From the NCBI GenBank assembly GCA_005880615.1, contig VBID01000115.1, positions 16,431-80,430 of the forward strand: a stretch of 64,000 bases of DNA, written 5' to 3'. Source of the stretch: Chloroflexota bacterium. Its GTDB lineage: Bacteria; Chloroflexota; Dormibacteria; CF-121. The notes beneath the pieces were generated by a model, which worked only from the letters and a program-made list of their open reading frames with translations, made no database searches and had not been told where the DNA came from. Of this stretch, positions 14,192 to 58,652 are shown in pieces. The position numbers and the translations under genes were made by a program. The stretch's first letter is position 1. Every line of letters starts with the position of its first letter.

Positions 14192-15628
14192 TCAGGCAAC
14201 CTGGCGCACTCCGAGGCGGTCCTCGAGCGCGGCCAGCAGCTTGTCGACTCGCTGGCGGCTGGGCGCTTCACTGTAGACGCGGATCAACGGCTCGGTCCCG
14301 CTGAATCGGGTCAGCACCCAGCTGCCGTCGGCGAAGTAATACTTGAATCCGTCGTCGGTGCGGCTGCGCTGGATGCGCTCACCGGCCAGCTCCCGCGGCG
14401 GGTTCTTCTGCAGATCGGCATAGATGGCAGCCCGGCGATCCGCGTACTCCTCGCGCTCGAGGTGGATGTCGTGGCGGGCGTAGGCATGCGGCCCCACCAG
14501 GTCCTCCAGGTGCTGCAGCACCTTGGCCAAGGGCTGGCCGTACTGGACGATCAGGTCGGCGATGAAAATCCCGGAGAGGATACCGTCGCGTTCCGGGATG
14601 TGGCCCCGGAAGCCGAACCCGCCGCTCTCCTCGCCCCCCAGGATGGCGTTCACCTCGGTCATCTTGGGCCCGATGTACTTGAAGCCCACCGGGAGCTCAT
14701 GGACCGTGATCCCAAAGCGTTCGCCCAGCTTGTCCATCATCGAGGTCATCGTCAGGGAGCGCACCACGTCCCCCTTCCAGCCTCGCTTCTCGACCAGGTA
14801 CAGCATCAGCAGCGCCATCACCTGCAGCTGGTTGATGAACTGGCCGCGCTCGTCGATGATCCCCACCCGGTCGGCGTCGCCGTCGTTGGCGATGCCCAGG
14901 TTGTAGCCGCCTTTGCGGATCAGGGTCTGCGCTTCATCCAGGTTGGGGGGGATGGGCTCGGGATGCATCCCCCCGAAACCCGGGTTGCGCTCACCGTGGA
15001 TCTCGTCGACGACGGTGCGGCCACCCGAGAGCAGCAGTTTCAGGTATCCCTGGCCGCCGCCGTACATGGAGTCGTGCAGGATGTGCAGCCCGGCGTCTTT
15101 GAGAGCCTGCAGGTTGACCATCCGGCCGATCTGCGCGATGTAGGCCGGCCGCGGGTCGAAGATTTCGATCAGGCCCTGCCGCTCGCCGTCCTCAAATCGC
15201 AGCTGGCGAACCTGGCCGCTTCGCTGGACGACGGCGATCTCCTGCTCCAGGCGGCCGGTGACCTCCGGCGAGGCGGAGCCCGCGTACTCTGGCTTGTACT
15301 TGAGGCCGCTGAAGTAGTAGGGGTTGTGGCTGGCGGTGACCACCACGGCACCGCTGGCCTTCCGGTCCAGGATGGCGTAGGAGGAAACCTGGGTAGGGGA
15401 AGGCGCGTCGATGAGCAGCGCCCGCACGCCGTTACCGGCCAGCACCTGGGCCACCTCGCGCGCGAACCGGTCGGAGGCAAACCTGGTGTCGTATCCCACC
15501 ACCGCGGACGGGCTTGGTTTGCTGGTCAGGTACTGGGCGATGCCCTGGGTGGCCACCCGCACGGCCTCATAGGTGAAGTCGTCGGCGATGATGCCGCGCC
15601 ATCCGTCCGTGCCGAACTTGATGTCCAG
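14192..15628 (-). CDS. phosphomannomutase/phosphoglucomutase (alpha-D-phosphohexomutase family)
   Basis: TASHNPYYFSGLKY (active-site Ser loop), GDGDADR (metal-binding loop), GGEESGG sugar-binding loop. The conserved N-terminus DIKFGTDGWRG lies upstream of the first GTG, so a CTG start at ~15628 is inferred (see findings). Confidence 0.85.
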   Translation of the reverse strand: MDIKFGTDGWRGIIADDFTYEAVRVATQGIAQYLTSKPSPSAVVGYDTRFASDRFAREVAQVLAGNGVRALLIDAPSPTQVSSYAILDRKASGAVVVTASHNPYYFSGLKYKPEYAGSASPEVTGRLEQEIAVVQRSGQVRQLRFEDGERQGLIEIFDPRPAYIAQIGRMVNLQALKDAGLHILHDSMYGGGQGYLKLLLSGGRTVVDEIHGERNPGFGGMHPEPIPPNLDEAQTLIRKGGYNLGIANDGDADRVGIIDERGQFINQLQVMALLMLYLVEKRGWKGDVVRSLTMTSMMDKLGERFGITVHELPVGFKYIGPKMTEVNAILGGEESGGFGFRGHIPERDGILSGIFIADLIVQYGQPLAKVLQHLEDLVGPHAYARHDIHLEREEYADRRAAIYADLQKNPPRELAGERIQRSRTDDGFKYYFADGSWVLTRFSGTEPLIRVYSEAPSRQRVDKLLAALEDRLGVRQVA

Positions 15629-15658
15629 GCTCTCACCCTCGTCAGGATGCCGGTCCGG

Positions 15659-16639
15659 TCAGCGCGAAGCCGGGACCGGAGAACTGCGAAGCCGCGCTCG
15701 CCAGTAGTTTAGGGTATCCTCCAGCGTCTGCTCCAACGAAATGGTCGGCTCCCAGCCGGTCAGCTGCCGGAACTTGGTGGCATCGCCGACCAGCAATTTG
15801 ACGTCGGACGGCCGCATTCGCGACGGGTCGTTCTCGACGGTGATCTTTTCCTTGGTGAAGGACAGCAGGATGTCGAGCATCTCCTTCACCGTCCGGCGGC
15901 GGCCCGACGCGATGTTGTACACCTCGCCAAAGGTCCCGTGCTCGAGCACCAGCCAGTAGGCGCGCACCATGTCGCGCACGTCCGTCCAGTCGCGGACCGG
16001 GGAGAGGTCACCCACCTTGATGACGGGTTTCCGGCGGCCCAGCTCGACCTCCGCCACCTGCTTGGCGAAGGACGAGGTGACGAACACCTCGCCTCGGCGG
16101 GGCCCCTCATGGTTGAAGGCCCGGGTCACGACGGTCTGCAGGCCGTAGGAGTAGTGGTACTGGATGGCCAGCATCTCCTGCGCCACCTTGCTCACGGCGT
16201 AAGGAGAGAGCGGCCGCAAGACGTTCGATTCCTTGATCGGGACCTGGTGCGGCTCCACGTGGCCGTACTCTTCGGAGGACCCGGCGATGTGCACCCGCGG
16301 ATCGACCCCCTCGCTGCGGATGGCCTCGAACAGGTTGACCTGGCCAATGACGTTGGTGTTGAGCGTTTCGACCGGAGCCCTCCAGGATGTGGGCACGAAA
16401 CTCTGGGCGGCCAGGTGAAAGATCCGGTCGGGTTGCGTCTCGCGGATGACCAGGCGCATCGAAGATGCGTCGTTCATGTCACCTTCCAGGACGTGGATCT
16501 TGCCCTCGAGGTGCTCGATGTTCTCCACCCGGCTGCGCCACCGCTTGATCCCGAAGACCTCCACCCCGGGCAGGGTGAGGCAGTAGTCGGCCAGGTGGCT
16601 GCCGGCCATCCCGGTGATGCCGGTGATCAGGACGCGCAT
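15659..16639 (-). CDS. gmd: GDP-mannose 4,6-dehydratase family (NAD-dependent epimerase/dehydratase)
   Basis: MRVLITGITGMAGSHLADY Rossmann motif, catalytic YxxxK (PYAVSKVAQE); SDR-extended fold typical of Gmd/Rmd. Confidence 0.8.
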   Translation of the reverse strand: MRVLITGITGMAGSHLADYCLTLPGVEVFGIKRWRSRVENIEHLEGKIHVLEGDMNDASSMRLVIRETQPDRIFHLAAQSFVPTSWRAPVETLNTNVIGQVNLFEAIRSEGVDPRVHIAGSSEEYGHVEPHQVPIKESNVLRPLSPYAVSKVAQEMLAIQYHYSYGLQTVVTRAFNHEGPRRGEVFVTSSFAKQVAEVELGRRKPVIKVGDLSPVRDWTDVRDMVRAYWLVLEHGTFGEVYNIASGRRRTVKEMLDILLSFTKEKITVENDPSRMRPSDVKLLVGDATKFRQLTGWEPTISLEQTLEDTLNYWRARLRSSPVPASR

Positions 16640-16675
16640 GACTGTTCAATCGATAGCGGCATCCGGAACCTTCTG

Positions 16676-16714
16676 AATACCCCCACCCCACCCTCCCCGC
16701 AAGGGGGAGGGAAA
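16676..16714. repeat. GC-rich hairpin element copy inside the manC-gmd intergenic spacer (same operon)
   Basis: ACCCCCACCCCACCCTCCCCGCAAGGGGGAGGGAAAGG. Confidence 0.8.
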
Positions 16715-16736
16715 GGATTGCGTGCCACTGGACGGT

Positions 16737-17807
16737 TCACAGGTATTCCTTCTTCCCCATCTGCTTCAGCCGTTCCACGATCAGGCGAACGTCCTGGGAG
16801 CGGGTCTTGGGACAGATCAGGATGGCGTCCTCGGTCTCGATTACCACCATGTTCTCCAGGCCGACCGCCGCCACCAGCTTGCGGGGCGAGTGGATCATGC
16901 AGTTCCGCGAGTCGATCAGCACGTGCTCGCCTTCCACGAAATTGCCGGCCTCGTCCTGCTCCAGGATGTCGTGGAGGTCCGCCCAGGACCCGATGTCGTG
17001 CCATTCGAACTGGGCCGGCACCATCAACAGGTTGTGCGTCTTCTCCAGCACCGCCGTATCGATGGCCGCCGTGGGCAGCGCCAGGTAGGCCGCTTCGGCC
17101 GCCGCCGTATCGCCCCGCCCACTGGCGTCCCCGAAGGCGGCCAGCCCGCCGTACAGGTCGGGGGCATGTTTGGCCATCTCGGCGAAGAGGATGTCCACCG
17201 ACCAGCTAAACAGCCCCAGGTGCCAGAAGTAGTCACCCTCCGCCAGGTAGCGGTCGGCTGTCTGCAGATCGGGCTTCTCGACGAACGCGCGGACCCGGTA
17301 GGCGGGGTCGCGGCCGGGCGCCTGCACCCGCTCGCCGAGCCGGATGTAACCGAAGGCCGTGGACGGATAGGGCGGCTTCAACCCCACCGTGACCAGCTTC
17401 CGCTCCTGTTCGGCCCACCCTGCCTCGCCGTCCAGCGTCCGCAGGTACGCGTCCTCATCGTTTCCGAGGTAGTGGTCGGCGTGGACTGAGATCATGGTCG
17501 CCCCGGGATCCGCCCGAGCGATGGTAAAGGCGGCCAGGCCGAGGGCCGAGGCGGTTCCCCGGCGGGCGGGCTCGATGATGAACTGGCCTTGGGTCAGGCC
17601 GGGGAGCTGCTCCTGGATGCTCTCCACCTGCGAGCGTTCGGTGATCACCGACACATCGTCGGTCAGCCGGCGGACCCGGTCATAAGTCGCCTGGAGGAGC
17701 GACTGCTTCCCGTGGAGGGCCAGCAGGTGCTTGGGATGCCCTTCCCGCGAGCGCGGCCAGAGCCGCGTGCCGCTCCCGCCGGCCAGGATCACCACGTGAC
17801 GGGCCAT
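16737..17807 (-). CDS. manC: mannose-1-phosphate guanylyltransferase (GDP-mannose pyrophosphorylase)
   Basis: VILAGGSGTRLWPRS...PKHLL nucleotidyltransferase signature; length and architecture of ManC/CpsB (GT-A-like NTP-transferase plus left-handed beta-helix). Confidence 0.85.
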   Translation of the reverse strand: MARHVVILAGGSGTRLWPRSREGHPKHLLALHGKQSLLQATYDRVRRLTDDVSVITERSQVESIQEQLPGLTQGQFIIEPARRGTASALGLAAFTIARADPGATMISVHADHYLGNDEDAYLRTLDGEAGWAEQERKLVTVGLKPPYPSTAFGYIRLGERVQAPGRDPAYRVRAFVEKPDLQTADRYLAEGDYFWHLGLFSWSVDILFAEMAKHAPDLYGGLAAFGDASGRGDTAAAEAAYLALPTAAIDTAVLEKTHNLLMVPAQFEWHDIGSWADLHDILEQDEAGNFVEGEHVLIDSRNCMIHSPRKLVAAVGLENMVVIETEDAILICPKTRSQDVRLIVERLKQMGKKEYL

Positions 17808-17808
17808 G

Positions 17809-18775
17809 CTAGTTCCGCTCCATCAGACGCCAGTAGTCCAGGGTGTCGCGCAGGGTGCGGTCGAGCGAGATGGCCGGTTGCCATCCGGTGAGCCGGCGGA
17901 ATTTGGTGGCGTCGCACCAATACGTGCTGACCTCCACGGCGTGCGTCCGGGCCGGGTCGACCTCGACCGTGATCGGGACGCGGCTCATGGGCAGCAGGAG
18001 CTCGACCACCTGGCGCAACGTGGGCGCCTGGCCGGCGCCCAGGTTATAGACCTCGCCCGGACGTCCCTGCTCGATGGCCAGGCGGTAGGCCCGCACCATG
18101 TCCCGCACGTCGGTGAAGTCGCGGCGGGCATCCAGGTTGCCGACGCGGAGCGTGGGGGGCTGCCGACCGGTCTCCATGCGGGCCACCTGCCGGGCGAAGC
18201 TGGGGATGGCGAACGTTGGGAGCTGGCGGGGTCCGGTGTGGTTAAAGGGACGAACGCGCACCACCGGCAACCCCAGGCTGAGAAAGTACTGGAGGCCAAG
18301 CAGATCCTGCCCGACCTTCGACACGCCATACGGGGTCAGCGGCCGCAGGGGCGCCTCTTCGGTGATGGCCCGCTCCCCATGGTCCGGCTGCTCGCCGTAC
18401 TCGTCGCCCGAGCCGACCACCAGCAAGGCTGGCGGCGTTTTCAGGGCGCTGGCCGCGGCCAGAACGTTGGCCTGGCAGCCGAGGTTGGTGTGCAGGGTGC
18501 CGGCCGGATCGTCCCAGGACTTGGCCGGGCTGGACGCGGCGGCCAGGTGGAAGACCCACTCCGGCTTGATGGCCCGCATCAACTCGTCCACCGCCGAGCG
18601 GCGCAGCAGGTTGATTTGGTGGCAGCGAACGCGCCGCGAGAGCTGCGCGGTCGCGTACGGGGTGGCTCCCCGGATGGCCCCATGGACCAGGTGCCCTTCG
18701 GCCACGAGGAGGTCGGCGAGATGGCTGCCGGCGAATCCATCGACGCCGGTGATAAGGACGACCCGCCGCCCTCGG

Positions 18776-18790
<15 letters not shown>
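17809..18790 (-). CDS. second NAD-dependent epimerase/dehydratase (GDP-4-keto-6-deoxymannose reductase/epimerase-like, Rmd/GMER-like); no canonical start codon
   Basis: Paralog of the gmd-family gene ([10 protein letters not shown] YxxxK motif). The Rossmann motif [21 protein letters not shown] is in frame upstream of the first GTG (18705), with no ATG/GTG/TTG between it and the upstream stop (~18792). The 5' boundary is approximate and overlaps the metK stop. Confidence 0.65.
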
Positions 18791-22160
<3,370 letters not shown>

Positions 22161-22166
22161 GATGGC

Positions 22167-22712
22167 TCAGAACTTGATGTGGGAGACCACGTCGTACTCC
22201 GCCAGGTTGTCAATCCCTTTGAGGAAGCGGAGCTCGATCAAGAAGGAGATGCCCACCACCTGGCCCCCCAGTTGCTGGACCAGCCGGGTCGTCGCCCGGG
22301 CCGTGCCGCCGGTGGCCAGCAGATCATCCACGATGACCACCGGCTGGCCGGGCTTGATCGCGTCCTTGTGGATTTCCAGCACGGCCGAGCCGTACTCGAG
22401 GGCATAGGATTCGGCAATCTTCTGGGCGGGCAGCTTGCCCTCCTTCCGCACCGGGACGAATCCCGCTCCCAGCTGGTACGCCAGCGCCCCGCCGAAGATG
22501 AAGCCGCGCGACTCCACCCCGACCACCAAATCGACGGTTTTGCCGCGATAGGTGGCGGCCATCAGGTCGACGGCTTCCCGAAAGGCGGCCGGGTCCATCA
22601 GCAAGGTGGTGATGTCCTTGAAGAGGATCCCCTCCTTCGGGAAGTTGGGGACGTCCCGGATCTTCGCGCTCAGGGCCGCGAGGGCGGCATCCGCGGCGCG
22701 GTCGGCCTGCAC
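22167..22712 (-). CDS. apt: adenine phosphoribosyltransferase
   Basis: PRPP-binding VVIVDDLLATGGTA motif; 181 aa; FPKEGILFKDIT N-terminal Apt signature. Confidence 0.9.
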   Translation of the reverse strand: MQADRAADAALAALSAKIRDVPNFPKEGILFKDITTLLMDPAAFREAVDLMAATYRGKTVDLVVGVESRGFIFGGALAYQLGAGFVPVRKEGKLPAQKIAESYALEYGSAVLEIHKDAIKPGQPVVIVDDLLATGGTARATTRLVQQLGGQVVGISFLIELRFLKGIDNLAEYDVVSHIKF

Positions 22713-22723
22713 GGGCCCTAGTG

Positions 22724-22787
22724 TAGCCCGGGTCCGCCGATCGGACGACGCAGATACGAGTTCGATTCGGTGGACGTCGGCTTATTC
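22724..22787. mobile_element. mini MITE copy (left and right TIRs only, ~64 bp)
   Basis: TAGCCCGGGTCCGCCGATCGGACGACGCAG + ATACGAGTTCGATTCGGTGGACGTCGGCTTA; the marR stop codon (22782-22784) is the TAA of the right TIR. Confidence 0.7.
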
Positions 22788-23270: not shown

Positions 23271-23393
23271 CCCCTCAGGCTAGCAGAACCTGGACCATAG
23301 TTTGGAACCTAATGATTTGGGCATAAACGACCTGAAACCGGGGTTCCCCGGTACGAGGCTACGGTTTCCGTAAGGGGTTAAAGGAGAACTGAA

Positions 23394-25730: not shown

Positions 25731-25755
25731 CGGACGACTGAGCCTCTACCGCCTG

Positions 25756-25788
25756 ACTACGACCCGGCGCATCGCCGGGTCGTAGTCG
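25756..25788 (+). terminator. lon terminator hairpin
   Basis: GACTACGACCCGGCG-CAT-CGCCGGGTCGTAGTC is a perfect 15-bp stem; it is immediately followed by a GC-rich hairpin element copy (25799-25833). Confidence 0.7.
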
Positions 25789-25857
25789 TGATTGCAGGGC
25801 CACCCCCACCCCTACCCTCCCCTGGGGGAAGGAGAATCTTGGAGGACAATCCACTAA

Positions 25858-39136: not shown

Positions 39137-39213
39137 TGGTGCCCTCGGCAGGACTCGAACCTGCGACGCCCGCCTTAGGACGGCGGCGCTCTGGTCCCCT
39201 GAGCTACGAGGGC
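39137..39213 (-). tRNA. tRNA-Arg (anticodon CCT), CCA encoded
   Basis: Reverse complement GCCCTCGTAGCTCAGGGGACCAGAGCGCCGCCGTCCTAAGGCGGGCGTCGCAGGTTCGAGTCCTGCCGAGGGCACCA. 7-bp acceptor stem, D arm GCTC/GAGC, anticodon stem CCGCC/GGCGG with loop GTCCTAA, T-loop TTCGAGT. Confidence 0.9.
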
Positions 39214-39284
39214 GACGACCCATCAGACGCCGTAGGCGAGTATACCCGCGCTACAATTGGCCTCTGCCGCCTGAGGCGGCTCCG

Positions 39285-39360
39285 TCGGGGCGTAGCTCAG
39301 CCAGGTTAGAGCGCACGGTTCGGGACCGTGAGGTCGGTGGTTCAAATCCACTCGCCCCGA
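39285..39360 (+). tRNA. tRNA-Pro (anticodon CGG)
   Basis: CGGGGCGTAGCTCAGCCAGGTTAGAGCGCACGGTTCGGGACCGTGAGGTCGGTGGTTCAAATCCACTCGCCCCGA. Acceptor CGGGGCG/CGCCCCG, anticodon loop TTCGGGA, T-loop TTCAAAT; no encoded CCA. Confidence 0.9.
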
Positions 39361-39445
39361 TTCTTCAAGATCGGATATTTGGGCTGCCAGGCGATCGTCG
39401 GCCACCATTTGGGTGATGGCCTCAGCCCACGCCGATTGCGAGACG

Positions 39446-46947: not shown

Positions 46948-46989
46948 CCTCCTTCGCGCGAGGAAAAAGGCGGGTCGTCCCTGGGCCCC

Positions 46990-48108: not shown

Positions 48109-48219
48109 GAATCCTCCTCCGCCTTCGGCCGCGGCCTTCGCCCGCGATCGTTGATCGCGCTGACAGTCTACAAGGCGTTTCCGCTGCAGGTTCACCATGA
48201 CTTCAGGTAGGGTGTCTGC

Positions 48220-49709: not shown

Positions 49710-49738
49710 CAGCCCACTCCTGATGCACTGGCGCCGGC

Positions 49739-50266
49739 TCAGTCGCCGCTGTAGAAGGGGTTTTTCAGGTTGTCCCGGTCGGCGACCAGCCGCGCCGCCG
49801 CCTTCGGGTCGCGTCCCTGGACGCAGGTCGCGATCGCCTTCCGCACCGCGTGCCGGTTGGCGACGCGGACCGCGGTCTCATCCTCGGCATCCGGGTCGAC
49901 CCAGACCGCGACAAAGACCAACAGGTCGCCGGTGGCTTCGATCAGCCCGTCCGCCACCGCGTCGAGGACGCCCTGGCCGATCCCAAGCTGCGCGGCGCCC
50001 CAAGTGATCGTCTGGTGCCGGTCACTGGTCGCCGTCGCCTTGTTCATCATCAGGGTCGGCGGCCAGACCGGCTCGTACTGGGCTTCCTCGGGCCCCACGC
50101 AGACGAGTACCGGCGTGTGACCGGGCGCCGGGTGCGCGAACATACCGACCGCCGCCGCGGCGATCGCGCTGCCGCGACGGGCGAGGACGACGTTGACGTG
50201 GCTGCCGTTCGGCTTGACGCCGCCCCAACCCTCGCCGATCCGCCCGTCGAGCTCGTCCGGTATCAC
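49739..50266 (-). CDS. formaldehyde-activating enzyme (Fae)-like protein
   Basis: 175 aa; matches the Fae pattern (HVNVVLARRGS..., TLMMNKATA, GPAQ-like GAAQLGIGQGVLDAVADGLI, C-terminal NPFY). Confidence 0.6.
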   Translation of the reverse strand: MIPDELDGRIGEGWGGVKPNGSHVNVVLARRGSAIAAAAVGMFAHPAPGHTPVLVCVGPEEAQYEPVWPPTLMMNKATATSDRHQTITWGAAQLGIGQGVLDAVADGLIEATGDLLVFVAVWVDPDAEDETAVRVANRHAVRKAIATCVQGRDPKAAARLVADRDNLKNPFYSGD

Positions 50267-52323
50267 GCGGCTGGCTGCTTGGTTCCGGCCACCTGGGCGG
50301 CCTCTTGTGGCTGTGCCTGGAGGCGCCGCAGTTCCTCGATCGGAATGTGGCAGCGCATCAGATGACCTGGCCCGACCTCGACGAGGGGAGGCTCTTTCTC
50401 GTCGCAGATCGCGCCAATTCGCCGGTGGCAGCGGGTGTGGAAGACGCAGCCCGTTGGTGGCGCAGCGGCGCTGGGGATCTCACCGGCGAGCTTGATGCGC
50501 GCCCGCCCGCCGCCATCGATGGTCGGCACCGCCGAAAGCAGGGCCTCGGTATAGGGGTGGTGCGGACCGTCGAAGACGACCTCGGCTGGCCCCATTTCCA
50601 TCAGCCGGCCGAGATAGAGCACGGCGATGCGGTCGGAGATGTAGCGCACGACACCCAGGTCGTGGGAGATGAACAAATAGGCGACCCAGCGCTGGACCTG
50701 AAGGTCGACCAGGAGGTTGAGGATCGCGGCCTGAACCGAGACGTCGAGCGCGGAGGTGGGCTCGTCGCACACGACCAGGCGCGGTTCGCCGGCGAACGCG
50801 CGAGCGATGGCAACCCGCTGCTTGAGGCCGCCGGAGAGCTGGTTCGGCCGAACCGTGAGATAGCGCTCGGCCAGGCGGACCGAGCCGGCGAGCATGAGCA
50901 GCCGCTCCTCGGCCGGGGCTCCCGAGATCCCGGCCAACTTCTTGAGCGATCGGCGGAGGATGCTCCGAACGGCATGGCGGCGGTTCAGCGCCGAGTCGGG
51001 ATTCTGGAAGACGATCTGCAGCTCGCGAACGTCCGCCTGGGTCCGCCTCGAGAGCGTGGGCGGGAGGACATGGGCATCGAGCTCCACCGTGCCTCCGGTG
51101 GGGGCGAAGAGGCCGAGGACGGCCCGGGCAAAGGTCGTCTTGCCGCTGCCGGACTCGCCGACGAGTCCCAGAGTCTCACCCGGCCAGAGCGCCGCGGAGA
51201 CGGCCTCGAGCGCGTGGATCCGGCGCCCATTCTGCTCGAAGGTCTTCGTCAGTTCCTTGACCGCCAGCAGCGGTGCCTTCGAACGGTCGACCAGGATGGG
51301 CTGCCCCAGCTCGGGTGGTGTCGTCCGGGGCAGGTCCTGCGCCCGCTCGTGGAAGTAGCAGCGGCTCGAGTGATCTTCCGTGATTTGATACAGCGGAGGC
51401 TCCGTCGCACGGCAAATGTCCTGAGCCAACCCGCACCGGGGCGCGAAGACGCACGCCCGTAACTCCTCGTCGATCGACGGCAAGAAGCCGGGAATCGTGT
51501 CGAGCCGCCCCCGGTCCTTACGCGCACCGCCTCGCGGGACGCAGCGGAGCAGCCCGACCGTATACGGGTGGCGCGGACCCTTGAGGACCTCGCTGACAGG
51601 GCCTTCTTCGACGAGCCGTCCGGCGTAGAGCACGCCGACCCGTTCGCACATCTTCGCGATCACGCCCAGGTTGTGGGTGATGAACAGCACCGAAGTGCGG
51701 AACTCGGCCTGCAGGTGCTGGATCAGATCGAGAACCTCGGCTTCGACGGTGGCGTCCAGGCTGGTGGTCGGTTCGTCGAGGATCAGCAGCCCCGGATCGT
51801 TGGCAAGCGCCATGGCAATGACGACGCGCTGCTGCATGCCGCCCGACAGCTGGTGCGGATAGCGCGCCATCACCGATCCTGGATCGGCAATCTGAACCTT
51901 GGCCAGCGCCTGCAGCGTCCGTTCCAGGGCCTCCTCGCGCCCGGCGCCACGCACACGGAAGACTTCGGCCACCTGCTCGCCGATACGGATCGATGGATTC
52001 AAGGCTTCCGCGGGATTCTGATACACCATGGACACGTCATTCGTCCGCAAGTGGCGCAGGGCCCGGTTCGACAGGCCCACCACATCGCGGCCGGCAACGC
52101 AAATCGAGCCGCCGCGAATCCGTCCGTTGCTCGCCAGGTACCCGACCACGGCGAGGGCGGTCGTCGACTTGCCGCAGCCGGATTCGCCGACGAGCCCATA
52201 GGTCTCCCCGGCGGCGATGGTGAACGAGACGCCGCGCACGACCTGGCGGTCGCGGCCTCGCACCCGGTAGACGACCTCGAGATCCTTGAGCTCCAGGGTC
52301 GGAGCCGCGCCACGGTCGGTCAT
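50263..52323 (-). CDS. peptide/nickel ABC transporter ATP-binding protein, fused tandem ATPase (DppD-DppF-like)
   Basis: Two complete ABC cassettes (GESGCGKST and GESGSGKTT Walker A; two LSGG signatures), each with the C-terminal oligopeptide-transporter ATPase extension. Confidence 0.9.
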
Positions 52324-53189
52324 CGCCCAAACACCCGGGCGAGCCCGTCGGCGACGAGGTTAACGGCCACCACGAGCGAGATGATGGCCAGCGCCGGGAA
52401 GAGCACTGTCCACCAGTAGGTGCCGGCGCCCAGGAGCGTGTAGTTGTCGGCGATCTGCAGCGCCCAGTCGGGCGACGGCGGCTGCACGCCGAAGCCGAGG
52501 AAGGTCAGGCCGGCGACCGCGAAGATGGCGTAACCGAGGCGCACCGTCGCTTCGACCACGATCGGCCCGAACACGTTCGGGAGGATCTCGACAAACATCA
52601 CGTAGGGGGCTCGCTCCCCTTGGAGGCGCGACGCCGAGACATAGTCGAGCTGTCGCTCGGCCAGCACGGCGGCCCGGACGGTCCGCGAAACGATCGGCGC
52701 GAAGACCAGGCCGATCACCACGATCACGGTCAGGGTGGAGTGCCCGAGCGCCACCAGCACGGTGACCGCAATCACGATCAGGGGCAGCGACAGAACGGCA
52801 TCGACAATCCGGCTGATCACGTCGTCGGTCAGGCCCCGGAAATAGCCGGTGACCAGGCCGATGGTCGTGCCGCCGACAACCCCGAGCAGCGTGGCTAGCG
52901 GCGCGACGATCAGAATGTCCCGAGCCCCGGCCAGCACCCGCGAGAAGACGTCGCGGCCCAGCTGGTCGGTGCCGAAGGGATAGGCGCGGCTCAGTCCCTG
53001 CAGTTGCGGAAAGGCCTGGGACAGCGGATCGTGGGGCGCGATGCGGTAACCGAAAATCGCACAGAACACCCAGAAGGCGATGATGATGACGCCGGCCATG
53101 AAGGTCTTCGACCGGAGGAGCTGCCGCCGGGTCTCCCGCCGGGCGATCCGTATTTCCGATGGCTGGACGATTGTGGCAACGGTGCTCAT
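52320..53189 (-). CDS. peptide ABC transporter permease (DppC/OppC family)
   Basis: BPD_transp_1 permease with the EAA-like loop. Confidence 0.85.
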   Translation of the reverse strand: MSTVATIVQPSEIRIARRETRRQLLRSKTFMAGVIIIAFWVFCAIFGYRIAPHDPLSQAFPQLQGLSRAYPFGTDQLGRDVFSRVLAGARDILIVAPLATLLGVVGGTTIGLVTGYFRGLTDDVISRIVDAVLSLPLIVIAVTVLVALGHSTLTVIVVIGLVFAPIVSRTVRAAVLAERQLDYVSASRLQGERAPYVMFVEILPNVFGPIVVEATVRLGYAIFAVAGLTFLGFGVQPPSPDWALQIADNYTLLGAGTYWWTVLFPALAIISLVVAVNLVADGLARVFGR

Positions 53190-54136
53190 TCAACACCCGC
53201 GTAGCGGATGCGCGGGTTGAGCAGGGAATAGAGAATGTCGGCGAGCAACGTCGCCGTCAGGTAGACGATTCCCACGACGAGCACGCCGCTCTGCAGCATC
53301 GTGAAGTCCTTGTTCAGCGCCGCGGTGTAGATGCGCTGCCCGATGCCGTTGTAATTGAAGAGCTTCTCAATCACGACCAGGCCGCCAATCAGGTACCCCA
53401 TCTGCGTCGCAATCACCGCGATTGTCGGCAGCAAGGAGTTGCGGAGCACGTGCCGGCGGATCACGGTGGCCGTGTCCAGGCCCTTGAGGAAGGCCGTCCG
53501 GGTGTAATCCGACTCGAGGGCCTCGATCGTGCCGGCTCGAGCCATCCGGGCGATGTAGCCGAACAGGACCATCACCAGCGCCAGTCCCGGCAGGATGAGG
53601 TACCGGATCTGGGTGACGGCGTCGGCGTCGGCCGGGGAGGCCGCCGTGACCGGCAACCAGTTCAACAGCAGGCCGAAGATCAGGATCAGCACGATGGCCG
53701 AGATGAACTCGGGCACCGCCGTCAGCGACAGCCCCGTGAGTGTAATCAAGCGGTCCAGCCAGTGGCCCCGGCGAAGCGCGGCGAACACGCCGCCGACGAT
53801 GCTCAGCGGCACCACGAGCACAAAGGCGACGGCGGCCAGCTTCAAGGAATTGACGAGCGAGGGGCCGAGGAGGCTCGCCACCGGAACTTTGTACTCGAGC
53901 GACATGCCGAGATTGCCGTGGGCGAGTTTCCCGATCCAGGCACCGTACTGAACGTAGATCGGCCGGTCCACGCCCAGTTGGTGGTCGAGCGCCTTGACGT
54001 CGTTGGGACTGGCGAACGGCCCGAGCACGTTGCGACCGATGTCGCCCGGCAGCAGCTGCGAGGCGGCAAAGACGAGCACGCTAAGCACGAACAGCGTGAT
54101 GAGCGCGAGAGCGAATCGCTTCAGCAGGAAACGGGC
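53186..54136 (-). CDS. peptide ABC transporter permease (DppB/OppB family); start extended upstream of the ORF-track GTG
   Basis: The first TM helix (ARFLLKRFALALITLFVLSVLVFAA) is in frame upstream of the GTG at 54088. GGAGGAGG RBS at ~54143-54150. Only ATC (54136) or CTG (54124) are available as initiators. Confidence 0.75.
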   Translation of the reverse strand, partial: ARFLLKRFALALITLFVLSVLVFAASQLLPGDIGRNVLGPFASPNDVKALDHQLGVDRPIYVQYGAWIGKLAHGNLGMSLEYKVPVASLLGPSLVNSLKLAAVAFVLVVPLSIVGGVFAALRRGHWLDRLITLTGLSLTAVPEFISAIVLILIFGLLLNWLPVTAASPADADAVTQIRYLILPGLALVMVLFGYIARMARAGTIEALESDYTRTAFLKGLDTATVIRRHVLRNSLLPTIAVIATQMGYLIGGLVVIEKLFNYNGIGQRIYTAALNKDFTMLQSGVLVVGIVYLTATLLADILYSLLNPRIRYAGVE

Positions 54137-54181
54137 GATGACAAACCTCCTCCCGACCGGTCGGGTGTCGGAAGGTATCGA

Positions 54182-55876
54182 TTAGGCGAGCGACGTTTGG
54201 CTGAGGAACACCGTGCCCTGTGGGTCGGCATAGTAACCCTTGACTGACTGCGAGCCCGCGGCGAGGTAGTTGTAGAAGTAGGGGAAGATCACCGGTGTGT
54301 CCTGCAGCAGGATGGTTTCGGCCTGCTTCGCGTACTTCCGCTGGTCGTCGATCGAGATCGCGCCGATGAACGCTTTGGCGGCCGCATCGAACTGCGGGTT
54401 CGAATAGTGCGCGGCGTTCCAGACGCCGTTGGTTTGCAGCGCCGACGTGAGAAACACATTGGGAACCGACCGATGACCCCAGTCGGTGATGTTGATCGGG
54501 GCGTTCAGCCACGGGGTATCGCCCCAACCCGACGGCGGGCCCAGCTGCGAGCCGGCGAAGTAGGCGGTCGAGGTCAGGATGGAGAGCTTCATGTCGATGT
54601 TGATGGCCTTCACAGACTGCTGAATGATCTGCGCCAGCTGAGGGATCTCACCCGTGTCCTCCGTCGTCAGCGTGATCGAGAACCCGTTGCTGAACCCGGC
54701 GGCGGCCATCAACTGCTTGGCCTTGGTCAGGTCCTGCTGCCGCTGGGGCACGTCCGGCGCGCCGACAGTCGACGGGTAGACCGGCCCCCACGGCGTGTCA
54801 TTGCCGACATCGGCGTACTTGCTGAACAACTTGTCGACGATCGCGGGACGGTCCAGCGTCAGCGCGATCGCCTGCCGAACCTGGGGATCCTTCAGCGGGT
54901 TGGCGAGATCCACCCGCATCGGCACCTGGCGGTGGGTGGCGCCGCGACCGCCGAAGATCTGGATCTTCGAATTGTTGAAGAGGGCGCGGTCGGTCGCGAG
55001 CTGGATCTGCCCGATGAGGTCAATCGTGGCGCCAAGCAGGGCCGCGTCGACAGCGGCGGCGTCCTGGTAGTAGGTCACGTCCACCCCGTCGAGCGGCGGG
55101 CGGCCGCCCCACCAGTCGGTGTAGCGCTCGTACTTGGCCCCCACGCCTGGCGTGTACGAGGTCAGCTTGAAGGCACCGGTTGTCTGCGGCTTCGAGGTGA
55201 ACGTCCCGAGCTGATAGTTGGCGGGCAGCATGATGCTCTGGTAGGTCGTGGAGCTGAGCAGGTAGGGGAAGCTCGCCGTCGGATTGTCGAGCTGGAACTT
55301 CAGCGTAAGGTCGTCGACCTTCGTGGTCCCGCCCGGCGAGAGGACCCCCTTGAACGCCGACAGTGCCTGCGAACCCGAGTTCGGGCTGACCAGGCGCTCG
55401 TAGGTCGCCACGATGTCGGTGGCCGTCAGTACCTGACCGGTCTGGAACTTGACGTTCGGCCGCAGCTTGATGGTCCAGACCGACGCGTCCCCGTTCGGTG
55501 TCCAGCTGGTCGCCAGCTCTGGAACGAGCTTGAGGTTGGCCGCGCTGCGGATCAGGTGCTCACCGGCGATGCTTCCGGTCTCGAGCGCCCCCTGGTCGGC
55601 GAATGTATGTGGTTCGATGTCGTGCGCCGGGGGCGGAATGATCCCCACGCGGAGACGCCCGCCGACCTTTGGCCCCGAAGTAGAGGTCGGCGACGACGCG
55701 CAGCCCGCCGCGACCAGCGCAGTGCCGATCGCGGACGTGGACAACCCGAAGACCGTCGCCCGGCGAATGAACTCCCGCCGGTCTACCCTACGGTCGAGGA
55801 GCTCGTCGATGAGTGTCCTTTCAATGGGACCGCTCTGCCGGTACCCATCCAGGCGCCTACGTATCTCCCTATCCAT
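54182..55876 (-). CDS. ABC transporter substrate-binding protein, family 5 (DppA/OppA/NikA-like), Tat-type signal
   Basis: RREFIRRATVFGLSTSAIGTALVAAGC (twin-arginine signal plus lipobox-like Cys); 564 aa SBP_bac_5 architecture. Confidence 0.9.
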   Translation of the reverse strand: MDREIRRRLDGYRQSGPIERTLIDELLDRRVDRREFIRRATVFGLSTSAIGTALVAAGCASSPTSTSGPKVGGRLRVGIIPPPAHDIEPHTFADQGALETGSIAGEHLIRSAANLKLVPELATSWTPNGDASVWTIKLRPNVKFQTGQVLTATDIVATYERLVSPNSGSQALSAFKGVLSPGGTTKVDDLTLKFQLDNPTASFPYLLSSTTYQSIMLPANYQLGTFTSKPQTTGAFKLTSYTPGVGAKYERYTDWWGGRPPLDGVDVTYYQDAAAVDAALLGATIDLIGQIQLATDRALFNNSKIQIFGGRGATHRQVPMRVDLANPLKDPQVRQAIALTLDRPAIVDKLFSKYADVGNDTPWGPVYPSTVGAPDVPQRQQDLTKAKQLMAAAGFSNGFSITLTTEDTGEIPQLAQIIQQSVKAINIDMKLSILTSTAYFAGSQLGPPSGWGDTPWLNAPINITDWGHRSVPNVFLTSALQTNGVWNAAHYSNPQFDAAAKAFIGAISIDDQRKYAKQAETILLQDTPVIFPYFYNYLAAGSQSVKGYYADPQGTVFLSQTSLA

Positions 55877-56770
55877 AGTTGGCTACGACCTCCTCAGTCC
55901 TCTCCCCTCCTACAGGAGATCTGACTCAGGAGATGCTGACACTCGAGTCGCCATGTGTCAATGCCGAATATGCTCCTGAGGCCGATCCCGGGCGCCTCGC
56001 AAACCGACGGCGGGCCCGCCGTCGGACTGGGCCGGCCAGCTGCCCCAGGCCGCCCCCCAGCCCGAGCCCGGCGCATGGCGGCCCGTGCCGACCAGCTCTG
56101 AAGCCATTCCGGCTTCGTTGAATCGGACGTCGCCAGGGCGAGGCCCGCCGGCACCATCACCTTCATGCCCTGCTAGCCGGAGCGCGTGGTCACCGCGGGC
56201 GCCGGTCTACCGGCCTGCCTTCGATCACCCCGAGGCCGCGGGCTCAACCATCAGCTATCTCTGCGTCCACCTGTGATCGTCCACCACCAAGGCAGCCGTG
56301 CTCCAGGCAGAGCCGGAACCGGCGGGAATCGTACGGGTCGGCGGATCGATGCCGATCGCCCACGCGGCCGAAAAAGGTCTGCCCGGGGGCGCCCTCCTGG
56401 ACGACGATCTCGTGGCCGAGCTCGCGTAGCCGCTCCCGCACCGGTGGCCGCCGCGGCGAGTCGCGCAAGTTACCGCAGCCGGTCGGTAATGCGTTGATGC
56501 AGCGCGACCTCTTCGGCCTGGAGCCGCGCCAGCCGGGAATGTGCTTCATGGCGGGCTCGGAGCCGCCTCGCGTTCTGGACTGATGGACGGACAAAGAGGT
56601 GAGCCATCAGGAGAGGGGATATCGCTAGCACAGACAGGGCGATAGATACCACTCTCCCAATCTATCGTGGGCGTACGGTTCCAGCGTGACGCAGCAGTCA
56701 CAATCCGGAAACCAACTCGACCCCTTACGAATCGGCTTTCTGAACTGGACGCGACGGTAGGCGGTTTTCC

Positions 56771-57607
56771 TCAACCGGCGGCCGACTCCTCGCCGCGCGG
56801 AGCGGAGGCCAACCACGCCGTGTGCGCGCTGGCTACCACCTCAGACTTTCGCCGGATGTCGTCGTAATCCGAATCGCCGACCGGGACGAAGCGCTCGATC
56901 AGTCCCTCGGCCAGCCGCTCGCGAGCGCCGTCCTCGCCGTTGAGGCCGCACAGGGCCTCGCGAATGGCGGTCTGGACGTCGGCCGGCAGTTTGCTGGAGA
57001 CCACCACCGGGGGGATGGTCGATGGCCCCAGCACCTGGATCACCCGAATCTCGGACGCCAGTGCTGGGCGGCGCTTCAATTCGACGCCCAGGACGTGGGA
57101 ATCGATGGCCGAGGCATCGACCTTGCCGGCCAGCACCGCCTGCATCGACGCCAGGTGCGAACCGGAGTACATCACCCGCCCGAAGAACCGCTCGGTCTCC
57201 CCCAGCTGGAGGAGGTGGTAGCGGGTCAGGACACAGCCGGAAAACGACGTCGGTTGCGTATGCGCCCAGACACGATCACGCAGGTCCGGGAACTTGGCGA
57301 CCGGCCCGTTCCGCCGGACGATCACGTCCGAGAAGTAGATCGGCCGGCCATCGTACCGATGCTGGTTGACGACGGGGGCGGCGATGGCGCGGATCGGCGG
57401 GTCCGGACGCGCGGCCAGCCGCACGTAGGGCAGCCCGCAGAGGAAGGCAACGTCAACATGACCGCCCACCAGCGCCTCCTCGTCGGCCGTGTTCGCCAGC
57501 ACCCCGCCACGGCCCAGCAGCGTCCCCACCCGCTCGGCCACGTAGGCGTAGGCCGGCGTCATGTTGGGCGCCAGGAAGTTGGCGAAGACGAGCGCCGGAG
57601 GGGTCAC
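56771..57607 (-). CDS. PhnD/SsuA-like (phosphonate/phosphite-binding fold) protein without obvious signal peptide
   Basis: Periplasmic-binding-protein type-2 pattern. Start ambiguous (GTG 57607 or ATG 57559). The 5' 100 codons of ORF 56771..57922 are MITE copy D sequence, not coding. Confidence 0.5.
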   Translation of the reverse strand: MTPPALVFANFLAPNMTPAYAYVAERVGTLLGRGGVLANTADEEALVGGHVDVAFLCGLPYVRLAARPDPPIRAIAAPVVNQHRYDGRPIYFSDVIVRRNGPVAKFPDLRDRVWAHTQPTSFSGCVLTRYHLLQLGETERFFGRVMYSGSHLASMQAVLAGKVDASAIDSHVLGVELKRRPALASEIRVIQVLGPSTIPPVVVSSKLPADVQTAIREALCGLNGEDGARERLAEGLIERFVPVGDSDYDDIRRKSEVVASAHTAWLASAPRGEESAAG

Positions 57608-57643
57608 GACTTCGCGGAGTATCGCAGATTGGATACCCCATCC

Positions 57644-58005
57644 AAGCCCGGATCCACCGATCGGACGATGCAGCTTGGGATGCCCGGCGAGATGAGCGGT
57701 AGGAGGCGACGAGCACGCGAAGGAGCGCACCTGAATGGTGCGTGACTGAGCGCGCGCAGGAGACGACACCCGGAGCCCGGGGCCGTCGGACGAACGAAGC
57801 AGATTGGGAGGCGGGGCGTGCCGAGCCGCAGGAGGCGACGAGCACGCGAGGGAGCGCATCCGTCGATGCGTGGCCGAGCGCGCGCAGGAGACGACGACCG
57901 GATCGGCCGCAGCCGCGCCCAAGATGCGAGTTTGTTCCGGCGGCCTCGGGCTCAGCTCGCCCGGCGCCCAAGATGCAAGTTCGATTCGGTGGATCCGGGC
58001 TTAGG
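57644..58005. mobile_element. MITE-like element, copy D (two internal tandem units; best-preserved TIRs)
   Basis: Left AAGCCCGGATCCACCGATCGGACGA; right (reverse complement) AAGCCCGGATCCACCGAATCGAACT; internal hairpins GCACC-TGAAT-GGTGC and GCATC-CGTC-GATGC. Confidence 0.8.
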
Positions 58006-58181
58006 CCGCTTGGCGTGAAAATCCTTGCAAAAACACAACGGACCGTGGGATACTTCGGCACACCATCGACGCCAGTACGACAAACGACTGGGGCACGGCG
58101 ACCGGACCGATCATCGAGAATCCGCTCCACGGCGAGCGCGTCAGGTTCCTCAAGACGGTTCCGGAAACGGATGGTGAGCTG

Positions 58182-58652
58182 TTGCAGTACGAGTCCTGGC
58201 TTGCCCCGCAGGGCAGTGTGGGCGTCCCCCACGTCCATCCCGTCCAGGAGTCCCGGTTCCTCATTCTGGCTGGGCGTGCCAGCTTCATGGTGGACGGGCA
58301 CAGTCTCGAACTCGGACCTGGCGAGACCCTGACGGTCGGACCGCGCACCCCTCACTACCTCTGGAATGCGGCCGACACGGAAGCCCACCTGATCATCGAG
58401 TTTCGCCCCGGGCTGCTCAAGCAGGAGTACTTCGAGACTTCGTTCGGCCTGGCCCGCGACGGCCGGCTCAACCTGATTGGGATCCGGAACCTGTTGCAGT
58501 ACGCGGTGCTGACCGCCGCCTACCGCCATGAGAGCCGTCCGCTGAACCAGTCGCGCTGGGCCCATGCGGCTCTCGTCGGCCTGGCCCCGTTAGGCTGGCT
58601 GCTCGGGTACCGGGCCCACTACGCCCGCTACTGCACGCGCTCCGCCGACTGA
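58182..58652 (+). CDS. cupin-domain protein
   Basis: Cupin motif 1 G(x)5HxH(x)3E (GSVGVPHVHPVQESRFLILAG) and motif 2 (GETLTVGPRTPH). The frame is open back to ~58005 (ENPLHGERVRFLKTVPETDGE...) with no canonical start upstream of the TTG at 58182. Confidence 0.65.
   Translation: MQYESWLAPQGSVGVPHVHPVQESRFLILAGRASFMVDGHSLELGPGETLTVGPRTPHYLWNAADTEAHLIIEFRPGLLKQEYFETSFGLARDGRLNLIGIRNLLQYAVLTAAYRHESRPLNQSRWAHAALVGLAPLGWLLGYRAHYARYCTRSAD

What the first reader, a model, noticed from the sequence alone, without database searches (positions are those of the whole stretch)
14192..58652. Several conserved N-termini lie upstream of any ATG/GTG/TTG: possible CTG/ATC initiation (or cryptic frameshifts) in at least four genes
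(i) Phosphomannomutase: the universal N-terminal motif DIKFGTDGWRG is in frame upstream of the first GTG (15562). Between it and the upstream stop only CTG (15644, 15626) or ATC exist; a CTG at ~15628 is preceded by GAGGGTGAG. (ii) Second epimerase: the Rossmann motif [17 protein letters not shown] precedes the first GTG (18705) with no canonical start back to the in-frame stop (~18792). (iii) DppB permease: TM1 (ARFLLKRFALALITLF) precedes the GTG at 54088. A perfect GGAGGAGG RBS is followed after 6 nt by ATC (54136), then CTG at 54124. This frame is the same as the upstream dppA frame, separated only by TAA. (iv) Cupin at 58182: the frame is open and cupin-like back to ~58005 with only ATC/CTG available. 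Four independent cases in 64 kb, two with good SD sequences in front of ATC/CTG, suggest real non-canonical initiation in this organism rather than assembly errors.
Basis: partly seen in the sequence, partly recalled or inferred. Interest (0 to 1): 0.55.

Follow-up and report, generated by a model that had tools for sequence, protein, structure and literature searches.

The report
Four genes lacking standard start codons
In this uncultured soil Chloroflexota genome, four intact, conserved genes have no ATG/GTG/TTG where the protein must begin and most likely start at weak codons (ATC, CTG, probably ACG); the sequence is correct and relatives share the feature, so it is real, but it is a known kind of exception and NCBI has partly annotated it.

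Summary
Family profiles and homologues place each N-terminus 17-30 codons upstream of the first ATG/GTG/TTG. Assembly error is excluded: independent metagenome assemblies are identical at the PMM and epimerase sites or give the same truncated calls.

- **DppB permease:** ATC 54139 sits at the Met position, 6 nt after GGAGGAGG. It is kept in relatives of 91% and 88% identity. NCBI already starts the protein there.
- **Phosphomannomutase (PMM):** CTG 15628 follows GAGGGTGA. Relatives have CTG, GTG or ATG at that same codon.
- **Second epimerase (epi2):** no canonical start in eight lineages (57-82% identity). About 80 of the 120 best database homologues are truncated calls. ACG 18783 overlaps the metK stop as ACGCCTGA, the -8 coupling geometry that a TTG start uses elsewhere in this operon. 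ACG is my inference, not shown.
- **Cupin:** the N-terminus is confirmed upstream, but the start codon is unresolved (ATC 58065, ACG 58077 or ATC 58110/58113).

Frameshift, readthrough and pseudogene explanations fail. Twenty other window genes checked have canonical starts, so the rate is about 4 in 55. These are new members of a known kind. A possibly lineage-wide looseness in start-codon choice, including ACG, remains open.

The parts
14192..15628 (-). Phosphomannomutase/phosphoglucomutase-family gene read from CTG 15628-15626 (478 aa)
   Evidence: PF02878 begins at the I of DIKFGTDGWRG. Orthologues of 478 aa start with GTG or ATG at this same codon (P0393, P0400-P0404). CTG is kept in L174 (95% identity) and L178 (79%).
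15633..15640 (-). Shine-Dalgarno-like GAGGGTGA, 4 nt upstream of the CTG
   Evidence: Read directly. GAGGGT is conserved in L174, whereas the out-of-frame GTG inside it becomes GTC there.
17809..18783 (-). Epimerase 2 (GDP-4-dehydro-6-deoxy-D-mannose reductase-like SDR) read from the candidate start ACG 18783-18781
   Evidence: PF01370 position 1 aligns to residue 13, and the Rossmann [11 protein letters not shown] motif lies upstream of GTG 18705. No canonical start exists in eight related lineages. ACG is in frame in most of them, 2 nt before the metK stop.
18776..18794 (-). metK/epimerase junction GGAG-TCACAGG-ACG-CC-TGA: GGAG 18794-18791, ACG 18783-18781, metK stop 18778-18776
   Evidence: The same -8 overlap geometry (NNNnnTGA) is used with TTG at the PMM/small-cupin junction, and with ATG or CTG there in relatives. 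-8 is an enriched coupling spacing (PMC12548453).
18751..18753 (-). ATC inside LITG, the start NCBI chose for this gene (TMD05965.1, 314 aa, MTGVDGF...)
   Evidence: This codon is GTC in most relatives. Starting here would delete the first Rossmann strand.
53186..54139 (-). DppB/OppB-type ABC permease read from ATC 54139-54137 (317 aa)
   Evidence: Profile position 2 aligns to the residue after the ATC. About 85 of 120 homologues start M/V/L+ARFLL at this codon. ATC is kept in L167 and L169 despite synonymous and intergenic divergence. NCBI TMD05991.1 starts here.
54146..54153 (-). Shine-Dalgarno GGAGGAGG, 6 nt upstream of the ATC
   Evidence: Read directly. It is the longest SD match among 45 window starts, tied with dppA. 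GGGGAGG is conserved in L167 and L169.
58005..58652 (+). Cupin gene, stop-to-stop ORF. The true start lies between about 58055 and 58113; candidates are ATC 58065, ACG 58077, ACG 58095 and ATC ATC 58110/58113. The first canonical codon is TTG 58182.
   Evidence: Most homologues align their residue 4 to window residue 33. A 71%-identity relative starts MTPLIVGQIIENP. A 1-nt indel against L171 just after the -10 box shows that the region upstream of about 58055 is not coding.
58025..58054 (+). Putative promoter of the cupin gene: TTGCAA (58025-58030), 18 nt, GATACT (58049-58054); ATC 58065 lies 10 nt downstream
   Evidence: Both hexamers are conserved and the spacer is diverged in L171. Other window genes have a TAnnnT box 6-7 nt before their start.
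14192..14199 (-). TTGCCTGA: TTG start of the small cupin overlapping the PMM stop (reference -8 junction)
   Evidence: ATGCCTGA in L093 and CTGTCTGA in L178.

Best explanation
The window comes from an uncultured soil Chloroflexota bacterium of class Candidatus Limnocylindria (the NCBI name of a cluster-mate at 90% identity or more). Four intact, selectively maintained genes are translated from near-cognate initiation codons instead of ATG/GTG/TTG.

- **DppB** starts at ATC 54139, behind a strong Shine-Dalgarno sequence.
- **PMM** starts at CTG 15628, behind GAGGGTGA. ATC two codons downstream is the alternative.
- **Epimerase 2** is most likely started by ribosomes that have just terminated at the metK stop or are held by the GGAG inside the metK tail. 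They would use ACG 18783 in the standard -8 start/stop overlap; some relatives use CTG in the -4 overlap CTGA or ATC instead.
- **The cupin** starts at one of three conserved near-cognate positions shortly after its promoter.

Shown here: the sequence is correct; the regions upstream of the first canonical starts are coding and under purifying selection; and the near-cognate codons occupy the positions of canonical starts in orthologues.

Inferred: that the initiator tRNA decodes these codons, that expression is correspondingly low, and that ACG is the epimerase start.
For: **Sequence correctness**
- Four independent assemblies are identical over 161-181 nt at sites (i) and (ii).
- Identical truncated gene calls come from several assemblies at sites (iii) and (iv).

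**N-termini**
- Profile and homologue alignments start 17-30 codons upstream of the first canonical start.

**DppB**
- ATC is kept in L167 (91% identity) and L169 (88%).
- Across the N-terminal 17 codons there are 4 synonymous and 3 conservative changes.
- Other relatives have ATG, GTG or TTG at that codon.
- NCBI protein TMD05991.1 starts there.

**PMM**
- Homologues of 95-98% identity are all truncated calls.
- The 91%-identity sister has GTG at the same codon, and relatives of 78-79% identity have ATG or GTG there.
- L178 has CTG again, with only synonymous differences downstream.

**Epimerase 2**
- About 80 of the 120 best homologues are truncated calls that lack the Rossmann motif.
- Ten loci from eight lineages have no canonical start.
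- The linker between the metK stop and the Rossmann strand is 4, 10, 10, 13 or 13 nt, all 1 mod 3 and in frame with the -8 ACG. In L090 and L178 it is 14 or 38 nt, in frame with the CTG of CTGA.
- My rough estimate for that frame agreement is p of about 0.007, treating the lineages as independent.
- The same -8 geometry carries a real TTG or ATG start 4 kb downstream.

**Literature**
- AUC and CUG initiate at 1-2% of the AUG level, and ACG gives Met-initiated protein in E. coli.
- ATC (dnaA) and CTG (rpsL) starts are proven in Deinococcus.
Against: - There is no protein or ribosome-profiling evidence, because the organism is uncultured.
- ACG is not among the table 11 initiators. Its conservation is confounded by the overlapping metK codons ([DN][GA]*).
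- ACG is absent in L178, so the start is not the same codon across the clade.
- NCBI chose different codons: ATC 18753 for epimerase 2, and GTG 15562 or the ATC of DIKF for PMM.
- The cupin has no Shine-Dalgarno sequence before any candidate codon, and its start is unresolved.
- The 4-in-55 rate comes from a window that was picked because of these cases.
Confidence: 0.8

Rival explanations
1. Sequencing or assembly errors (single-base substitutions or indels) destroyed canonical start codons in this assembly.
For: High-GC metagenome assemblies can carry errors, and each case is one substitution away from ATG or GTG.
Against: - Identical DNA is found in assemblies from four different samples and two centres.
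- The same non-canonical codons occur in relatives of 79-95% identity that differ at neighbouring bases.
- Dozens of truncated calls occur across public metagenomes.
Confidence: 0.02
2. The proteins really start at the downstream canonical codons (GTG 15562, GTG 18705, GTG 54088, TTG 58182). The upstream in-frame similarity would then be a remnant, leaving N-terminally truncated or decaying genes.
For: Gene callers, and NCBI for PMM (TMD05962.1), annotate those starts.
Against: - The truncated products would lose FGTDGWRG (PMM), the TGxxGxxG NAD site and first Rossmann strand (epimerase), transmembrane helix 1 (DppB) and the first cupin strands.
- These segments show synonymous-dominated divergence among relatives.
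- The remaining ORFs are intact over 57-98% identity.
Confidence: 0.08
3. Recoding from the upstream gene: a +1 or -1 frameshift or stop-codon readthrough makes MetK-epimerase and DppA-DppB fusion proteins, so no start codon is needed.
For: dppB is in the same frame as dppA, separated only by TAA. The epimerase frame is open across the metK stop in several relatives.
Against: - In L169 dppA and dppB are in different frames.
- The epimerase frame relative to metK is +1 in most lineages but +2 in L090 and L178.
- In the window an in-frame TGA lies 18 nt before the metK stop. That leaves only GAG TCA CAG GAC GCC TGA, which has no slippery sequence.
- Fusing a periplasmic binding protein to a permease is implausible (my own knowledge of the family).
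Confidence: 0.03
4. The epimerase start is a codon other than ACG: ATC 18753 as NCBI annotates, or a lineage-specific near-cognate such as AAG in the TAKTVLVTG group or ATC in L178.
For: - NCBI TMD05965.1 and HYS03076.1 start at ATC 18753.
- L178 has AAGGGG-CCCGG-ATC at the ideal Met position.
- In relatives with canonical starts (MITLVTG, MRTLVTG) the Met aligns with the AAG of L176 and L177.
Against: - ATC 18753 is GTC in most relatives, lies 15 nt from the nearest GAGGG, and would delete strand beta-1.
- AAG and the L178 ATC are each confined to one lineage.
- Linker lengths keep frame with the junction codons.
Confidence: 0.35

Closest known systems
Non-canonical initiation codons proven by N-terminal proteomics in Deinococcus (dnaA ATC, rpsL CTG, Deide_03051 CTG, infC ATA; Baudet et al. 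2010, PMC2830850)
   Same: Conserved genes lack ATG/GTG/TTG at the homology-defined N-terminus. ATC or CTG is conserved among related genomes, and automatic annotation gives heterogeneous truncated or extended N-termini.
   Different: Here there is no proteomic proof. The genes are different (sugar-nucleotide enzymes, an ABC permease, a cupin), the phylum is different (Chloroflexota), and one case probably uses ACG.
E. coli infC and pcnB AUU starts, and the NCBI table 11 alternative initiators (CTG, ATT, ATC, ATA)
   Same: A weak near-cognate codon behind a normal ribosome-binding site gives low expression. NCBI already applies ATC here.
   Different: No autoregulatory logic is evident for these genes. 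ACG is outside table 11 (my own knowledge of the table).
Translational coupling at -8 (NTGNNTGA) and -4 (NTGA) start/stop overlaps (Huber et al. 2019 and 2023; Brown & Wade 2025, PMC12548453)
   Same: The metK/epimerase junction has exactly the -8 geometry, or -4 in L090 and L178, with an SD-like GGAG 7 nt upstream inside the metK tail. The PMM/small-cupin junction in the same operon uses it with TTG.
   Different: The NTG of the motif is replaced by ACG or CTG. Dependence on metK translation is untested.
Measured initiation from all 64 codons in E. coli (Hecht et al., bioRxiv 10.1101/063800)
   Same: It shows that AUC and CUG (1-2% of AUG) and ACG (detectable, with Met at the N-terminus) can initiate.
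   Different: Those were reporter constructs in E. coli, not natural genes of this lineage.

Membership tests
Genes with near-cognate (non-ATG/GTG/TTG) initiation codons | The homology-defined N-terminus lies upstream of every in-frame canonical start | tested here: met
   Met for all four genes.
Genes with near-cognate (non-ATG/GTG/TTG) initiation codons | A near-cognate codon sits at the codon where orthologues have ATG, GTG or TTG | tested here: met
   Met for DppB ATC and PMM CTG. Epimerase and cupin give only approximate positions.
Genes with near-cognate (non-ATG/GTG/TTG) initiation codons | A ribosome-binding signal lies at functional spacing | tested here: inconclusive
   Strong for DppB (GGAGGAGG, 6 nt). 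Good for PMM (GAGGGTGA, 4 nt). GGAG lies 7 nt before the epimerase ACG. None for the cupin, which may have a very short leader.
Genes with near-cognate (non-ATG/GTG/TTG) initiation codons | The sequence is genuine, not an assembly error | tested here: met
   Independent assemblies are identical, and relatives share the feature.
Genes with near-cognate (non-ATG/GTG/TTG) initiation codons | The protein N-terminus (fMet/Met or processed) maps to that codon | not testable with these tools
   Needs N-terminomics, metaproteomics or initiation-site ribosome profiling.
Termination-reinitiation translational coupling (-8 / -4 overlaps) | Co-directional genes whose start and stop overlap as NNNnnTRA or NNNA | tested here: met
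   ACGnnTRA in the window, L175-L177, L087-L089, L092, L093 and L179. CTGA in frame in L090, L091 and L178.
Termination-reinitiation translational coupling (-8 / -4 overlaps) | The start codon in the overlap is a canonical NTG | tested here: not met
   The codon is ACG or CTG. This is what sets the junction apart from the described motif.
Termination-reinitiation translational coupling (-8 / -4 overlaps) | Downstream translation depends on upstream translation | not testable with these tools
   Requires reporter constructs with metK translation blocked or its stop codon moved.
Programmed frameshift or readthrough fusion | A conserved slippery site and a fixed frame relation to the upstream ORF | tested here: not met
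   The frame relation varies (+1 or +2; dppA/dppB are out of frame in L169) and there is no slippery motif.
Leaderless or very short-leader mRNA (cupin) | A -10 box about 6-7 nt upstream of the start codon, with the start at the 5' end | tested here: inconclusive
   GATACT ends 10 nt before ATC 58065 (9 nt in L171). Other window genes have 6-7 nt spacing. No transcription start data exist.

The most novel reading that the evidence does not exclude
Start-codon selection may be relaxed across this Limnocylindria lineage, with several per cent of genes initiating at CTG, ATC and even ACG. Such starts would often sit in start/stop overlap junctions or just after leaderless-type promoters. The metK-epimerase junction would then be a clade-wide, conserved ACG initiation by termination-reinitiation, a codon outside the accepted bacterial initiator set. 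This would imply a lineage-specific change in IF3, initiator-tRNA or 16S discrimination, or systematic use of near-cognate starts to set low expression.
Probability: 0.25. Interest if true: 0.7.

Novelty: new member of a known kind. Interest (0 to 1): 0.45.

Why it matters
Gene callers that allow only ATG, GTG and TTG systematically truncate these proteins. For epimerase 2, about two thirds of the closest public homologues lack the NAD-binding motif as annotated, which corrupts family alignments and functional inference for a widespread soil lineage. If the density of about 4 in 55 genes holds genome-wide, Limnocylindria would join Deinococcus as a lineage with unusual use of non-canonical starts. 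A conserved ACG start in a -8 overlap would be a natural test case for how post-termination ribosomes choose start codons.

Tried and rejected
- **Assembly error.** Rejected by independent assemblies.
- **Out-of-frame canonical codons plus a cryptic frameshift.** The GTG inside GAGGGTGAG (PMM) becomes GTC in L174. The TTG in GGTTTGTCATC (DppB) is absent in L169.
- **DppA-DppB readthrough.** The shared frame is not conserved in L169.
- **MetK-epimerase frameshift fusion.** The frame relation varies, there is no slippery site, and the window has an in-frame TGA 18 nt upstream.
- **Looking for a fifth case.** An all-against-all ORF comparison of the window and 24 related loci flagged the DUF5656 gene (13588..12662). 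Its conserved upstream 'peptide' turned out to be a conserved promoter (TAGACT, 7 nt, ATG), so its start is canonical. The screen was otherwise too noisy, because conserved overlapping and antisense frames in high-GC DNA gave false flags.
- **Pfam on 20 further ORFs.** No further case found.
- **Exact look-up of nine candidate N-termini for PMM, epimerase and cupin.** None is on record.
- **A third cupin lineage (P0360).** No DNA was on record, so the cupin start stayed unresolved.
- **tRNA and Rfam scans.** Nothing relevant near the sites.
- **Literature search on Chloroflexota start codons.** Nothing specific found.


Full report
**What the window is.**
- It is 64 kb, 67% G+C, with no Ns.
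- Exact-protein look-ups place it in soil metagenomes from several projects.
- NCBI holds the same organism as a 117,308-bp contig named 'MAG: Chloroflexi bacterium'.
- A PMM cluster-mate at 90% identity or more is named Candidatus Limnocylindria.
- The nearest species-representative genomes reach only 65% identity for PMM.

**Check of the observation.** I read all four sites and listed every stop-to-stop ORF with its first ATG, GTG or TTG.
- PMM: Pfam and NCBIfam profiles start at residue 13 of the ORF, against a first canonical start at residue 33.
- Epimerase 2: the profile starts at residue 13, against residue 31.
- DppB: the profile starts at residue 16, one residue after an ATC, against residue 32.
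- Cupin: Pfam covered only the barrel. A full-library search showed that most of the 150 best homologues align their residue 4 to window residue 33, while the first canonical codon is residue 60.

All four cases are therefore real. Three corrections apply: the ATC is at 54139, not 54136; only one CTG (15628) is in frame for PMM; and case (ii) has no in-frame CTG at all.

**Not an assembly artefact.**
- Four assemblies from different samples (ENA ERZ27285740 and ERZ27315233; JGI 3300026328 and 3300005174) are identical to the window over 181 and 161 nt around sites (i) and (ii).
- For sites (iii) and (iv), several assemblies yield the same truncated gene calls.

**DppB (iii).**
- Of the 120 closest homologues (80-100% identity), about 85 are 317 aa and begin M, V or L followed by ARFLL. 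They therefore have ATG, GTG or TTG at the codon that is ATC in the window.
- About 30, mostly in the 91-93% identity group, are truncated calls.
- DNA of two such relatives shows ATC retained behind GGGGGGAGG or GGGGAGG.
- In L169 (88% identity) the intergenic region has diverged. The next 17 codons carry 4 synonymous and 3 conservative changes, so the segment is translated.
- L169 also removes the out-of-frame TTG and breaks the dppA/dppB frame identity, which excludes both frameshift and readthrough.
- NCBI protein TMD05991.1 starts at this codon. The same contig's PMM protein is identical to the window's, so the DNA is almost certainly the same.

**PMM (i).**
- Among 80 orthologues from species-representative genomes, nearly all have ATG 3-8 codons before FGTDGWR.
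- Homologues at 95-98% identity to the window are all truncated calls. The 91%-identity sister (P0393, L173) has GTG exactly at the window's CTG. Relatives at 78-79% identity have GTG or ATG there.
- L174 (95%) keeps CTG and GAGGGT but changes the out-of-frame GTG to GTC and carries a 1-nt indel upstream.
- L178 (79%, GCA_030157205.1) again has CTG GAC ATC AAG with no canonical start in 18 codons. It differs only synonymously downstream.
- NCBI is inconsistent here. It uses GTG 15562 in this organism (truncated, 456 aa) and the ATC of DIKF in a Limnocylindria MAG (476 aa).
- I favour CTG because it is the codon homologous to canonical starts and lies 4 nt after GGTGA.

**Epimerase 2 (ii).** This is the most striking case.
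- About 80 of the 120 best homologues (57-82% identity) are N-terminally truncated calls lacking the Rossmann motif.
- The 'full-length' calls instead carry odd extensions, such as SRWWSRRTAKTVLVTG, which are the +1 frame of the metK 3' end.
- Ten loci from eight lineages share the synteny Pribosyltran-PfkB-AdoHcyase-MetK-epimerase 2-NTP transferase-epimerase 1-PMM-small cupin. None has a canonical start before the Rossmann strand.
- MetK carries a conserved tail QRLQV[MV]ESQ[DN][GA]*, which encodes GGAG. Seven nucleotides downstream lies an in-frame ACG, 2 nt before the stop (ACGnnTRA).
- The linker from the stop to the Rossmann strand is 4, 10, 10, 13 or 13 nt, all 1 mod 3, which keeps ACG in frame.
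- In L090/L091 (14 nt) and L178 (38 nt) the frame switches to the CTG of CTGA.
- Treating the lineages as independent, I estimate such frame agreement has a probability of about 0.007.
- Within the same operon, the PMM/small-cupin junction uses the identical -8 geometry with TTG (TTGCCTGA). L093 has ATG there and L178 has CTG.
- -8 and -4 are the known enriched coupling spacings.
- I therefore infer initiation at ACG (CTG in two lineages), aided by termination at metK.

This is an inference, with four caveats:
- ACG overlaps constrained metK codons.
- L178 also offers a well-placed ATC behind AAGGGG.
- AAG aligns with the Met of the canonical relatives in one group.
- NCBI picked ATC 18753, which is GTC in most relatives and would delete strand beta-1.

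**Cupin (iv).**
- An 80%-identity relative (L171) shares conserved TTGC.. and [GC]ATACT hexamers with an 18-nt diverged spacer.
- It has a 1-nt indel right after the -10 box. The region upstream is therefore promoter, not coding, and the start lies between about 58055 and 58113.
- The in-frame near-cognates shared by both sequences are ATC 58065, ACG 58077 and ATC ATC 58110/58113.
- ATC 58065 lies 9-10 nt after the -10 box. Other genes here have such boxes 6-7 nt before ATG or GTG.
- A 71%-identity relative has ATG at the position of window residue 28.
- Relatives at 90% identity or more are called either truncated or extended into the promoter.
- I could not resolve the codon.

**How common.**
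- Twenty other window genes checked against Pfam all have canonical starts upstream of their domains, giving about 4 in 55.
- In L178, three of about 16 genes lack canonical starts: epimerase 2, PMM and the small cupin.
- These figures are biased, because both the window and the loci were chosen through these genes.
- Annotated non-canonical starts in model genomes are about 0.05%.

**Comparison with what is known.**
- Near-cognate initiation is established. Examples are infC and pcnB AUU, and Deinococcus dnaA ATC and rpsL CTG shown by N-terminal proteomics.
- Reporter measurements in E. coli give AUC and CUG at 1-2% of AUG and detectable ACG initiation.
- NCBI already annotates ATC starts in this organism.

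The finding is thus a set of new members of a known kind. Two less ordinary aspects remain: a clade-wide, probably ACG-initiated gene in a coupling overlap, and a high local density of such starts.

Noticed in passing
L016, L051, L053, L061, L070 (PMM orthologues in Dehalococcoidia MAGs); Five species-representative genomes also lack a canonical PMM start. They read GGGGGTGAGG TAG ATA (G/A)AN AAY CCN ATY AAA, so ATA follows an in-frame TAG. Relatives L027 and L046 have TTG ATA at the same place. This looks like a conserved ATA start.
   Followed up: partly
L178:9279-9735 (GCA_030157205.1) and window 14192-14199: The small cupin after PMM starts in a -8 overlap: TTGCCTGA in the window, ATGCCTGA in L093 and CTGTCTGA in L178. 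L178 therefore has a third gene without a canonical start among about 16.
   Followed up: yes
window starts at 1339(-), 5789(-), 13516(-), 22712(-), 23270(-), 41521(-), 58674(+): A TAnnnT -10-like box lies 6-7 nt upstream of the start codon with no Shine-Dalgarno sequence, which suggests many leaderless or near-leaderless mRNAs. The DUF5656 promoter (TAGACT, GGGCGCC, ATG) is conserved across eight relatives.
   Followed up: partly
window 18776-18812 (-), metK 3' end: MetK carries a clade-specific C-terminal tail, QRLQV[MV]ESQ[DN][GA]. It is conserved at the nucleotide level and contains the GGAG upstream of the epimerase start, so the tail may be kept for the downstream gene's initiation region.
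   Followed up: partly
window 58104-58159 (+) vs L171: A 56-nt stretch at the start of the conserved cupin coding region (GGACCGATCATCGAGAATCCG...AAGACGGT) is 100% identical to a relative whose protein is only 80% identical. Not even synonymous changes occur. This may reflect a constraint at the RNA level or on the initiation region.
   Followed up: no
L098:2451 and L151:10007 (epimerase homologues at about 50% identity): Two more distant homologues also lack canonical starts. They have CTG exactly at the Met position (AAG CTG AGA GCA CTC GTC; AGC CTG AAA GCG TTA GTA) behind AGGAGG or GAGGA.
   Followed up: no
NCBI proteins TMD05962.1, TMD05965.1, TMD05991.1, HYS28206.1, HYS03076.1: Public annotation of the same genes is inconsistent. 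PMM is truncated at GTG in one MAG and started at ATC in another. The epimerase is started at an ATC inside the Rossmann strand. DppB is started at ATC.
   Followed up: yes
window 39137-39361: A divergent pair of tRNA genes, tRNA-Arg(CCT) on the minus strand and tRNA-Pro(CGG) on the plus strand, are the only RNA genes found.
   Followed up: no
L087-L089, L092, L173 (PMM upstream regions): PMM orthologues with GTG starts have a conserved TACGAT box 8-10 nt upstream of the GTG and no Shine-Dalgarno sequence. The window's PMM has instead a Shine-Dalgarno sequence and sits 30 nt after epimerase 1. The gene has therefore switched between promoter-proximal and operon-internal initiation contexts.
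   Followed up: no
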